Assembly (NCBI GenBank): GCA_963514005.1
Contig: OY740799.1
Coordinates: 18,042,001-18,106,000 of the forward strand
DNA: 64,000 bases
Direction: 5' to 3'
Source of the DNA: Raja brachyura
Taxonomy: Eukaryota
The stretch's first letter is position 1, and every line of letters begins with the position of its first letter. Shown piece by piece: positions 25,501-28,500 of this stretch. The notes under the pieces were generated by a model that did no database searches, had not been told where the DNA came from, and was given only the letters and a program-made list of their open reading frames with translations. The translations under genes were made by a program, and so were the position numbers.

Positions 25501-28500
25501 ACGAATCACTGATGGTGACGAGTCAGAGTATAGAAGTGAGATCGACCGATTGACCAAATGGTGCCAGTACAATAACCTGGCTCTCAACACCAGCAAAACC
25601 AAGGAACTGATTGTGGACTTTGGAAGGGGTGGGATAGGGACCCACAATCCCGTTTATATCAACGGGATGATGGTGGAAAGGGTCAAGAACTTCAAATTCC
25701 TGGGCGTGCATATTTCCGAAGATCTTTCCTGGTCCCAGCACACTGATGCAATAATAAAGAAAGCACATCAGCGCCTCTACTTCCTGAGAAGATTACGGAG
25801 AGTCGAAGAGGACTCTCTTGAACTTCTACAAGTGCACAGTAGAGAGTATGCTGACTGGTTGCATCGTGGCTTGGTTCGGCAACTTGAACGTCCAGGAGCG
25901 GAAAAGAATGCAGAATGTTGTGACCACTGCCCAGTCCATCATCGGCTCTGACCTCCCCACCATCGAAGGGATCTATCGCAGTCGCTGCTTCAAAAAAGCT
26001 GCCAGCATCATCAAGGACCCACACCATCCTGGCCACACACTCATCTCTCCGCTGCCATCAGGTAGATGGCACAGGAGCCTGAAATCTGGTAGATCCAGAT
26101 TCCATGAACAGCTTCTTCCCCACAGCCATCAGGCTATTAAATTCGCCATCAAACAGACTCTGAACTATAACAGCCTATTGCACTTTATCTGTTTATTTAT
26201 GTGTATATACATGGTCTATGCTATATAGACACACTGAACTGTTCTGTATTTGTTCTAACTATATTCTGATGTGCTGCAGCAAGAATGTCATTGTCCTATC
26301 TGCGACACATGACAATAAACTCTCTTGACTTGACTTGCATCGAATCTTGATGCTGAATCCAACTCAAACATATGTATGGGATTACTGCAAACATGAGTGG
26401 TTAGATCTGTTTTTCAAATTTACTAATTCTAGTTTCTTTTCCTCTCTTTATGTCCCACCTTTTTTCTTCCCCTTTTCTCTTCCTCGTAGACCACATAGCA
26501 CACATCATAGAGCTGCTAGGCAATATCCCAAGACACTTTGCTCTTTCTGGGAAATATTCTCGGGAATTCTTCAATCGCAGAGGTAGTACCTCTTCTCTTT
26601 GAAAGGTCCTGTCACACAGACAGAAGTGGAGAGAGTTTTCCATGGCTACTGAATATGTATAATCCAGTCCGCTAACCAAAATTAATGTCTGCTATGAACA
26701 TTGGGATTACTGTTTATCAATTTTTCTTAAGTTGAAAACAGATGCAATGGAATTAAAGCTGATTGTTTTGGGCAGGATATTTCCAAGCCTGTGATCTGTT
26801 GTAGAATGTACATAATGATATTAACAATGGAAGCAGACATGGCGAAATCTGATGAATAGGGATTGGTAATGTTGTCTCACATTTTAAACATAAATCTTGC
26901 CAAATTCCTTTTGAATTTAAGTATTTTGATTAAAACATAATGCTTATCAGCATTTTCTAGAAATGCTGAAATCCTAAAGATTAAAATGAAAGCAAAAGTG
27001 CCATTAAAAGTGATATTTACAGGAGTCCAAGGAATAATGGGGCTTCTTCAGTGTCAAGGAGGAAACACTCTTGTCTGTACCAGGACTAGTATCCCATGAT
27101 GCATGCATTGTACTGATTAAACTGTTTTTGTTTTGCTGGCAATGTTCTTCAATACAGATCACATAGCTTTGATCATTGAACTGCTGGGGAAAATCCCTCG
27201 AAAGTTCGCAATGTCTGGAAAATATTCCAAGGAGTTTTTCACCAAAAAAGGTAACAATAGTTATGAAGCGCTGACTCAAGTACATTAAATGTTCTGAGGT
27301 AATTTAAAAGAGTATATAAAATTGGCCTTGTCAATTTTGGGACAAATACATTGGTTATGATTAATGTCAGGGAAACAAGTATTCTACAAGAAGCCGATGA
27401 ATGCTGATCGTGATGCTGAATGCTTTGACATTTCTTTGAGACCAACACAAGAATTAAGTAACTGAGGCATTATGCCTTCCAGGTTTTTTTAAATTTCACT
27501 GTCACGGCTTTTCATATTTTTATGTGTAAGTCAACTGTAATTAAATGGTTCTAGGATTTGATGCAAGAATGGTCAGTTAATGTGCTAAATGTTAAATATA
27601 AATCCGATAGCCATTGCAAGAAGTTTTGAAATTAACATCACGGTAATTAGGTTCCAAAATATTTAGAAATGTATCCATTGAGAAAATTTAATACAACATT
27701 ATTATATTGCTGAAACCTGTACTTGGCTTTGTATGGTTTTGGAAGTCTATGTTGCAAGATGTAGATTGCATTATTTAATGAGGGTCTATTCCAAAATAAA
27801 TGAAGGTTGTGTAGTTTATTTCATATACATAACCATATTTAATGTATGTCTATATTAAACTATATACATATGGGTATGTTTTTAATAAGTAACGCTTATG
27901 GCAATTTTTAGAAGTCATCAGTATGTGCAACTTTGGAGAATAAGAAAGGAATTGCTAATTGACATTCAATTTGTTATATTTTGCTACCTAAGGAAAGTTC
28001 TATTAGTATTAAGCCAATTGGAAAAAGTACAGATGCTAGAAATTTGAAATGACAACAGAATGTTGGAAGAACTCAGGAACTATCTGTGGAGAATGGCATG
28101 CAGTTAATATTTTTGGGTCAGTGACTCTTAAAATGAACTGGAAAAGTGAGAAGAAAAAGCTATTTAGGTTGCAGAGAGTGCAAAGTTGGAAAGAACCAAG
28201 TTGCACAGGTGGATGTCCTTATGTCACCTGGAAAACCTTGGACTCACTTTGTCACTACCTGTTGTGTCCAGGTGATGCAACAATATCCAACATTAATTAG
28301 TTGTTTTTCTCTCCACAGATACTGTCTTATCTGGTGGATTTTTCTAGCCTATTCTTTTGTTTCAGATTTCCAGCAGCTGTAGCATTATATTTTTCAGCCT
28401 GACCTGCTGAGCATGTGCAACAGACCTCTTCTCGAAACATTTTACACCTCTATTATCACACTCTACCCGCTCCATTAATCCATTGACCATGACTTACCCC

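What the first reader, a model, noticed from the sequence alone, without database searches (positions are those of the whole stretch)
26490..27250. Tandem homologous exon pair that could switch SRPK2 between an SRPK2/3-type and an SRPK1-type docking groove
Seen: two 93-nt, phase-1/1, stop-free exons 575 nt apart, each with good splice sites, encoding the same segment with 8 substitutions (H/L, N/K, H/K, L/M, R/K, N/T, R/K, R/K) and many synonymous differences, which points to an old duplication under selection. Established: this segment is helix alphaG and the start of the MAPK-like insert, which form the SRPK substrate docking groove (D564 and E571 in human SRPK1). Exon A resembles human SRPK2/SRPK3 ([11 protein letters not shown]...SREFFNRR) and exon B resembles human SRPK1 ([12 protein letters not shown]...SKEFFTKK). 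The H/L position lies between those two acidic residues; I recall it being linked to SRPK1/SRPK2 mechanistic differences, which needs checking. Inference: the pair predates the vertebrate SRPK duplications, paralogues later favoured different copies, and this gene can make both kinase types, so a splicing kinase would be tuned by its own splicing. SRPK mutually exclusive exons may already appear in genome-wide surveys.
Basis: partly seen in the sequence, partly recalled or inferred. Interest (0 to 1): 0.88.

Follow-up and report, generated by a model that had tools for sequence, protein, structure and literature searches.

The report
SRPK2 swappable docking-groove exon pair
This ray-like fish's SRPK2 gene carries two duplicate exons for the kinase's substrate-docking helix, a pair already catalogued in humans, and they differ at the very His/Leu residue reported to set how many sites the kinase phosphorylates, so exon choice likely switches its mode of action.

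Summary
The pair is not new. Human SRPK2 has it as catalogued tandem-exon event 204, and human SRPK1 has a testis-enriched counterpart, both dated to chordates. My data agree. Both exons occur from lamprey to mouse. Grouping by gene is rejected for SRPK2 (p-AU 0.001). SRPK3 keeps only A and cartilaginous-fish SRPK1 only B. What I did not find in print is the functional link. Exon A carries His601 and exon B carries Leu. H601L is reported to raise SRPK2 processivity from about 5 to about 8 sites (second-hand), so exon B would be a natural H601L kinase. Caveats: no junction reads were obtained. Co-inclusion is commonly annotated (23 of 44 shark/ray models, biased sample), so exclusivity is leaky or unproven. 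Teleost srpk1a keeps both exons with Leu in each, so His/Leu is not the whole story. The intron flanks are conserved to amniote-type sequences, with an RBFOX-type motif beside B's branch point.

The parts
21433..21502 (+). Common upstream SRPK2 exon (end of helix F and F-G loop), ends in phase 1
26423..26489 (+). Exon A acceptor: branch-like CTAAT at -67 and a long pyrimidine tract (24 of 25 pyrimidines); branch region also seen in amniote-type intron read-through fragments
26490..26582 (+). Exon A, His-type helix alphaG and start of the MAPK-like insert; His601-equivalent codon at 26501-26503
26585..26629 (+). Conserved intronic stretch just after exon A's donor
   Evidence: 10 of 16 read-through residues match each of three unnamed fragments; background maximum 5-6 in 20,000 draws
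27100..27157 (+). Exon B acceptor: TGCATG at 27100-27105, branch-like CTGAT at 27113-27117, weaker pyrimidine tract (15 of 25); conserved in amniote-type fragments
27158..27250 (+). Exon B, Leu-type helix alphaG and start of the MAPK-like insert; Leu568-equivalent codon at 27169-27171
35840..36024 (+). Common last coding exon to the stop codon

Best explanation
The two exons are an ancient, conserved duplicate pair of SRPK2 whose alternative use likely yields two active kinases that differ in the floor of the substrate-docking groove: a His601-type, less processive form from exon A and a Leu-type form from exon B, predicted to be more processive, like SRPK1. Shown here: both exons are intact. 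Both sit in the same order in SRPK1 and SRPK2 of many jawed vertebrates, and a lamprey gene has models for each. A-only and B-only transcript models are annotated in sharks, rays and lampreys. The variable position is H601/L568. Taken from print: a single H601L change raises processive phosphorylation of SRSF1 from about 5 to about 8 sites. Inferred: the natural B form behaves like that mutant. Also inferred: exon choice is regulated through conserved intron flanks, probably by RBFOX binding beside B's branch point, which would repress B. Exclusion is leaky, and A+B transcripts are a by-product with a disturbed groove.
For: Anatomy. Same order A then B in human SRPK2 and in marsupial and teleost SRPK1. 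SRPK2-B is closer to this genome's SRPK1 exon (77 of 93 nt) than to its own neighbour A (63 of 93). By-gene grouping of SRPK2 A+B rejected, p-AU 0.0012 (9e-15 with more rows). Exon A peptide identical in lamprey, this genome, toad and bird; B identical across sharks and rays and 26-28 of 30 to amniotes. Lamprey models: 10 A-only, 7 B-only, 0 A+B, 1 unparsed of 18. Shark/ray SRPK2 models: 14 B-only and 5 A-only of 44. A predicted B-only shark kinase folds the exon as helix alphaG at pLDDT 80-86. Residue numbering D597-H601-E604 fits the exon. H601L effect. Conserved flanks.
Against: No junction reads for this or any species were obtained, so usage and tissue pattern are unmeasured. 23 of 44 shark/ray SRPK2 models, and 81 of 148 listed members of ten clusters, include both exons (samples seeded from A+B representatives, so biased). 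The catalogue lists no proteomics support for human event 204. Teleost srpk1a retains both exons with Leu in both, so selection can keep the pair without the His/Leu difference. The primary H601L paper could not be read. The RBFOX motif is one of 15 TGCATG in 34.5 kb, and its conservation is only compatible with, not proven by, protein-level read-through. The tree has 30 columns: a single B clade is not rejected but not strongly supported (p-AU 0.18-0.22), and by-gene grouping of SRPK1 is borderline (0.050).
Confidence: 0.6

Rival explanations
1. The pair is a real isoform switch, but what is selected is the other substitutions in the MAPK-like insert (partner binding, localisation or substrate choice), with His/Leu processivity secondary.
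For: 7 of the 8 differences lie outside the His/Leu site. Teleost srpk1a keeps both exons with Leu in each. SRPK2-B and SRPK1-B keep their own insert residues across lineages.
Against: His in A and Leu in B is invariant in every SRPK2 and lamprey model examined. It is the one groove residue singled out biochemically.
Confidence: 0.2
2. Exon B works mainly as an in-frame extra cassette: A+B co-inclusion makes a kinase with a doubled alphaG segment that is crippled or altered, and dials activity down rather than switching groove type.
For: A+B models are annotated in sharks, rays, paddlefish, amphibians, reptiles, birds and mammals. Frame is kept and the 575-nt intron imposes no steric exclusion. 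In the predicted A+B structure, residues 577-620 (F-G loop plus exon A) fall below pLDDT 50.
Against: B is conserved residue by residue as a working alphaG, which a mere disruptor would not need. B-only models exist in sharks, rays, turtle, lizard, bird and lamprey. 0 of 18 lamprey models co-include. The A+B excess is expected from the search, which sums two matches and favours long representatives.
Confidence: 0.13
3. The exons were duplicated independently in SRPK1 and SRPK2, or homogenised by gene conversion, and only look orthologous by type.
For: Only 30 columns. By-gene grouping of SRPK1 is borderline (p-AU 0.050). A Leu-type single exon occurs in the hydroid Hydractinia and groups weakly with B, so Leu can arise or persist outside the pair.
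Against: By-gene grouping rejected for SRPK2. Same order and phase in both genes and a lamprey gene with both. A published common ancestor with the tunicate Styela clava.
Confidence: 0.05

Closest known systems
[quoted passage not shown]
   Same: Orthologous gene, same two 93-nt exons, same order, His in A and Leu in B.
   Different: Intron 575 nt here versus 373 nt in human; B differs from the mammalian B at 4 of 30 residues. The rows seen give age and gene-duplication status but no function.
Human SRPK1 mutually exclusive exon cluster 2487 (PMC5740500 supplement; discussed in PMC8373072)
   Same: Paralogous pair, with a His-type extra exon beside the Leu-type main exon; dated to the ancestor shared with Styela clava.
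   Different: Default reversed (B main; A testis-enriched, Gini 0.96). In this genome and in all 34 cartilaginous-fish SRPK1 models examined the A copy is absent.
SRPK2 H601L mutant (Long et al. 2019, seen only as described in PMC8102418 and PMC11211491)
   Same: Same residue and same substitution as the A-to-B change.
   Different: An engineered point mutant; exon B adds 7 further changes and is natural. The passages seen do not mention the isoform.
FYN-type homologous exon pairs partitioned among paralogues (PMC9741552, passages)
   Same: Kinase with an ancestral exon pair whose paralogues kept one copy each.
   Different: Here the pair covers a substrate-docking groove in the C-lobe, and partition is lineage-dependent.

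Membership tests
Tandem exon duplication-derived substitution | Adjacent homologous exons of like length and phase in one gene | tested here: met
Tandem exon duplication-derived substitution | Transcripts that carry one exon in place of the other | tested here: met
   A-only and B-only annotated models in related sharks, rays and lampreys; not read-level and not this species
Tandem exon duplication-derived substitution | Exons more alike between species and paralogues than within the gene | tested here: met
Strict mutually exclusive exons | Never (or hardly ever) both included | tested here: inconclusive
   A+B models common in jawed vertebrates but the sample is biased; none in 18 lamprey models; no read counts
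Strict mutually exclusive exons | An enforcing device (steric branch point, frame/NMD, RNA pairing) | tested here: not met
   575-nt intron with B's branch-like site about 530 nt from A's donor, both exons 3n; local folds not above shuffles, z -0.9 to 1.8; long-range pairing not tested
SRPK2 orthologue | Exon-by-exon identity higher to SRPK2 than to SRPK1 or SRPK3 | tested here: met
   most kinase-domain exons 94-100% to a ray SRPK2 versus 58-100% to a skate SRPK1 and 50-72% to SRPK3-like
SRPK docking groove | Acidic alphaG residues D564/E571 (SRPK1) = D597/E604 (SRPK2) present in both exons | tested here: met
SRPK1-type processivity for the B form | About 8 processive sites on SRSF1 | not testable with these tools
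   needs start-trap kinetics
RBFOX-regulated exon | Conserved (U)GCAUG near the exon and response to RBFOX loss | tested here: inconclusive
   motif present at 27100; Ala-Cys read-through in 11 of 11 amniote-type fragments is compatible only; response untested

The most novel reading that the evidence does not exclude
Vertebrates set SR-protein phosphorylation depth by a splice switch older than the SRPK paralogues. SRPK2 makes a natural H601L, SRPK1-like processive enzyme where RBFOX is low, and mammalian SRPK1 makes a His-type enzyme in testis. 'SRPK1 versus SRPK2' biochemistry is then really 'exon B versus exon A' biochemistry, and His601-directed SRPK2-selective inhibitors would miss SRPK2-B and hit testis SRPK1-A.
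Probability: 0.35. Interest if true: 0.72.

Novelty: already known. Interest (0 to 1): 0.48.

Why it matters
The exon pair is catalogued but, in what I could search, not tied to function. If exon B is a natural H601L kinase, a difference treated as gene-specific (SRPK1 about 8 versus SRPK2 about 5 processive sites) is isoform-specific and can be switched by tissue. That affects how SRPK knockouts, cDNA choices and paralogue-selective inhibitor designs are read; PMC11211491 proposes His601 as the selectivity handle. It is directly testable with two constructs and public RNA-seq.

Tried and rejected
RNA evidence: the run search listed no holder on record as RNA. Seventeen guessed-RNA runs of 11 organisms held 0.11-0.32 of the words; these are unlaid small shares and are not used as evidence. 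Laying reads gave no result, so junction counts remain open. Decayed partner exons in this genome's paralogues: none by tblastn over 40 kb each. None by DNA local alignment against 200 shuffles either; the best of 16 tests was 3 of 200, not taken as a hit. RNA structure around the splice sites was no better than shuffles. 'His is ancestral, Leu a chordate invention' was considered and dropped: 17 of 18 named invertebrate proteins have His, but Hydractinia has Leu, as do several unnamed distant proteins. No named tunicate or amphioxus sequence was retrieved, so the chordate date rests on PMC8373072. Whether the original 1998 human SRPK2 clone used exon B could not be seen in the text. Long et al. 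2019 is not held. Supplement searches of PMC9741552 and PMC4494069 (file 1 not searchable) gave no SRPK row. No earlier finding of this scan matched.

Full report
Observation. They share 63 of 93 nt, with 8 replacement, 13 synonymous and 9 identical codons. The flanking common exons end at 21502 and begin at 35840, and either exon gives an open frame to the stop. The gene is SRPK2: most kinase exons are 94-100% identical to a ray SRPK2 model and less to SRPK1 or SRPK3-like models. The genome is 2.7 Gb and looks skate-like, since its C16 paralogue is 95% identical to skate SRPK3-like proteins over the last exon.

What the exons encode. A matches solved human SRPK2 at 29 of 30 residues; B's best solved match is human SRPK1. 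Published numbering (D564/E571 in SRPK1, D597/E604 in SRPK2; PMC10878513 passage) puts the variable fifth residue at L568/H601. PMC11211491 calls this the key difference at the centre of the groove and proposes His601 for selective inhibitors (passage). PMC8102418 reports, citing Long et al. 2019, that SRPK1 is processive over about eight sites and SRPK2 over about five, and that H601L raises SRPK2 to eight (passage). I could not read the primary paper. Exon B therefore encodes that substitution naturally, plus seven others. That it behaves like the mutant is inference.

Distribution. A search with exon B returned SRPK2 models with both exons from sharks, rays, paddlefish, amphibians, reptiles, birds, monotremes, marsupials and placentals, and SRPK1 models with both from dunnart, rhinoceros and teleost srpk1a, always A before B. 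Lamprey models of one gene are 10 A-only, 7 B-only, none with both and 1 unparsed of 18. SRPK3-group proteins have a single His-type exon in 122 of 123 (one skips it). Cartilaginous-fish SRPK1 has a single Leu-type exon in 34 of 34. In this genome the SRPK1-like gene (C24) has only B and the SRPK3-like gene (C16) only A, with no remnant found, so among the three SRPK loci found SRPK2 alone keeps both.

Age. SRPK2-B is 77 of 93 nt identical to the SRPK1 exon on C24 but 63 of 93 to its own neighbour. On 30 columns the jawed-vertebrate B exons form one group at modest support (76/80 to 84/79). Holding SRPK2 A and B together is rejected (p-AU 0.0012 on 34 rows after dropping two pairs of uncertain gene identity and the lamprey A row, which is identical to the window's). 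The same test for SRPK1 is borderline (0.050), and one clade of all B is not rejected (0.18; 0.22). Polarity is unresolved: 17 of 18 named invertebrates have His, but Hydractinia has Leu and falls weakly with B.

Already in print. The human SRPK2 pair is event 204 of the tandem-exon catalogue, marked gene duplication and Chordata, with an empty proteomics cell (PMC8373072 supplement rows). The human SRPK1 His-type exon is a mutually exclusive candidate with testis-biased expression (PMC5740500 supplement rows), and PMC8373072 dates it to the ancestor shared with Styela clava (passage). Nine full-text searches listed no paper that links the exon pair to H601/L568. The library lacks most subscription papers, and I read only passages of PMC7725506, PMC10952393, PMC12872631, PMC9741552 and PMC2141757 besides those above. 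One supplement file of PMC4494069 could not be searched.

How exclusive? Nothing in the anatomy forces exclusion: both exons are multiples of three and the intron is long. Among 44 shark and ray SRPK2 models, 23 include both, 14 B only, 5 A only and 2 neither. Among 148 listed members of ten clusters, 81 SRPK1/SRPK2 models have A+B and two more teleost models have both exons. These counts are biased upward, because clusters were seeded from top hits that score twice. They count annotated models, not abundance. AlphaFold2 on a bamboo-shark B-only model folds the exon as alphaG at pLDDT 80-86. On the A+B model, B takes that place at 62-76 while the F-G loop and exon A drop to 34-37, which suggests a disturbed groove but is only a prediction. 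No read-level junction data were obtained.

Regulation. Unnamed genomic fragments that read from the intron into the exon, with exon peptides identical to named bird or mammal proteins, show conserved flanks. After A, 10 of 16 residues match (background maximum 5-6 of 20,000 draws); before B, 6 of 8 match (maximum 4). An Ala-Cys-x-Val-Leu-Ile-Lys/Gln-Leu read-through occurs in 11 of 11 such fragments and at 27101-27124 here. In the window this spans TGCATG (27100) and a branch-like CTGAT (27113). TGCATG is the RBFOX motif, and upstream binding usually represses (recalled). With B's weaker pyrimidine tract (15 of 25 against 24 of 25 for A), this suggests A by default where RBFOX is high and B elsewhere. 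The motif occurs 15 times in 34.5 kb of the gene and its third-base conservation cannot be read from proteins, so this is a lead.

Verdict. Real, ancient and catalogued; the added value is the link to a measured mechanistic residue and a candidate regulatory element. Best reading: a leaky exon switch between a His-type and a Leu-type groove (0.6). Rivals: selection on the other insert residues (0.2, favoured by teleost srpk1a with Leu in both exons), B as a co-included damper (0.13), independent origins (0.05). Interest 0.48.

Noticed in passing
P0078, P0232, P0235 (teleost srpk1a models): The A-position exon of teleost srpk1a has Leu instead of His at the groove site, so both exons are Leu-type yet both are kept and annotated as single-exon forms.
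   Followed up: partly
G000:C16 near 14130623 (L003, L009-L012); P0259-P0273: Cartilaginous-fish SRPK3-like proteins are short (329-468 aa against about 600-800 in most full-length bony-vertebrate models) with a divergent F-G loop, which suggests loss of most of the spacer insert.
   Followed up: no
G000:C24 near 20407753 (L004-L008): SRPK1-like gene lacks exon A, as do all 34 cartilaginous-fish SRPK1 models examined: a lineage-wide loss of an exon that mammals use in testis.
   Followed up: partly
P0361 (Hydractinia): Single Leu-type exon that resembles B and groups weakly with it; either convergence or an older His/Leu dichotomy.
   Followed up: partly
window 44465-60008, minus strand: Exons of a gene ending tail-to-tail with SRPK2, with a 592-aa Pro/His/Ser-rich last exon; resembles KMT2E, the human neighbour of SRPK2 (name recalled, not tested).
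   Followed up: no
window 28767-30079: 66-nt inverted arms 1.2 kb apart enclosing a transposase-like motif at 29113-29196 on the minus strand, likely a Tc1/mariner element in the intron after exon B (family recalled).
   Followed up: no
P0139, P0173, P0196, P0204, P0221, P0223, P0394: Several annotated models skip both exons in frame, removing helix alphaG; one is a curated mouse RefSeq isoform (P0196).
   Followed up: no
P0486 (unnamed ENA fragment): A divergent open frame holding a degenerate first copy directly followed by a B-like copy; origin unknown.
   Followed up: no
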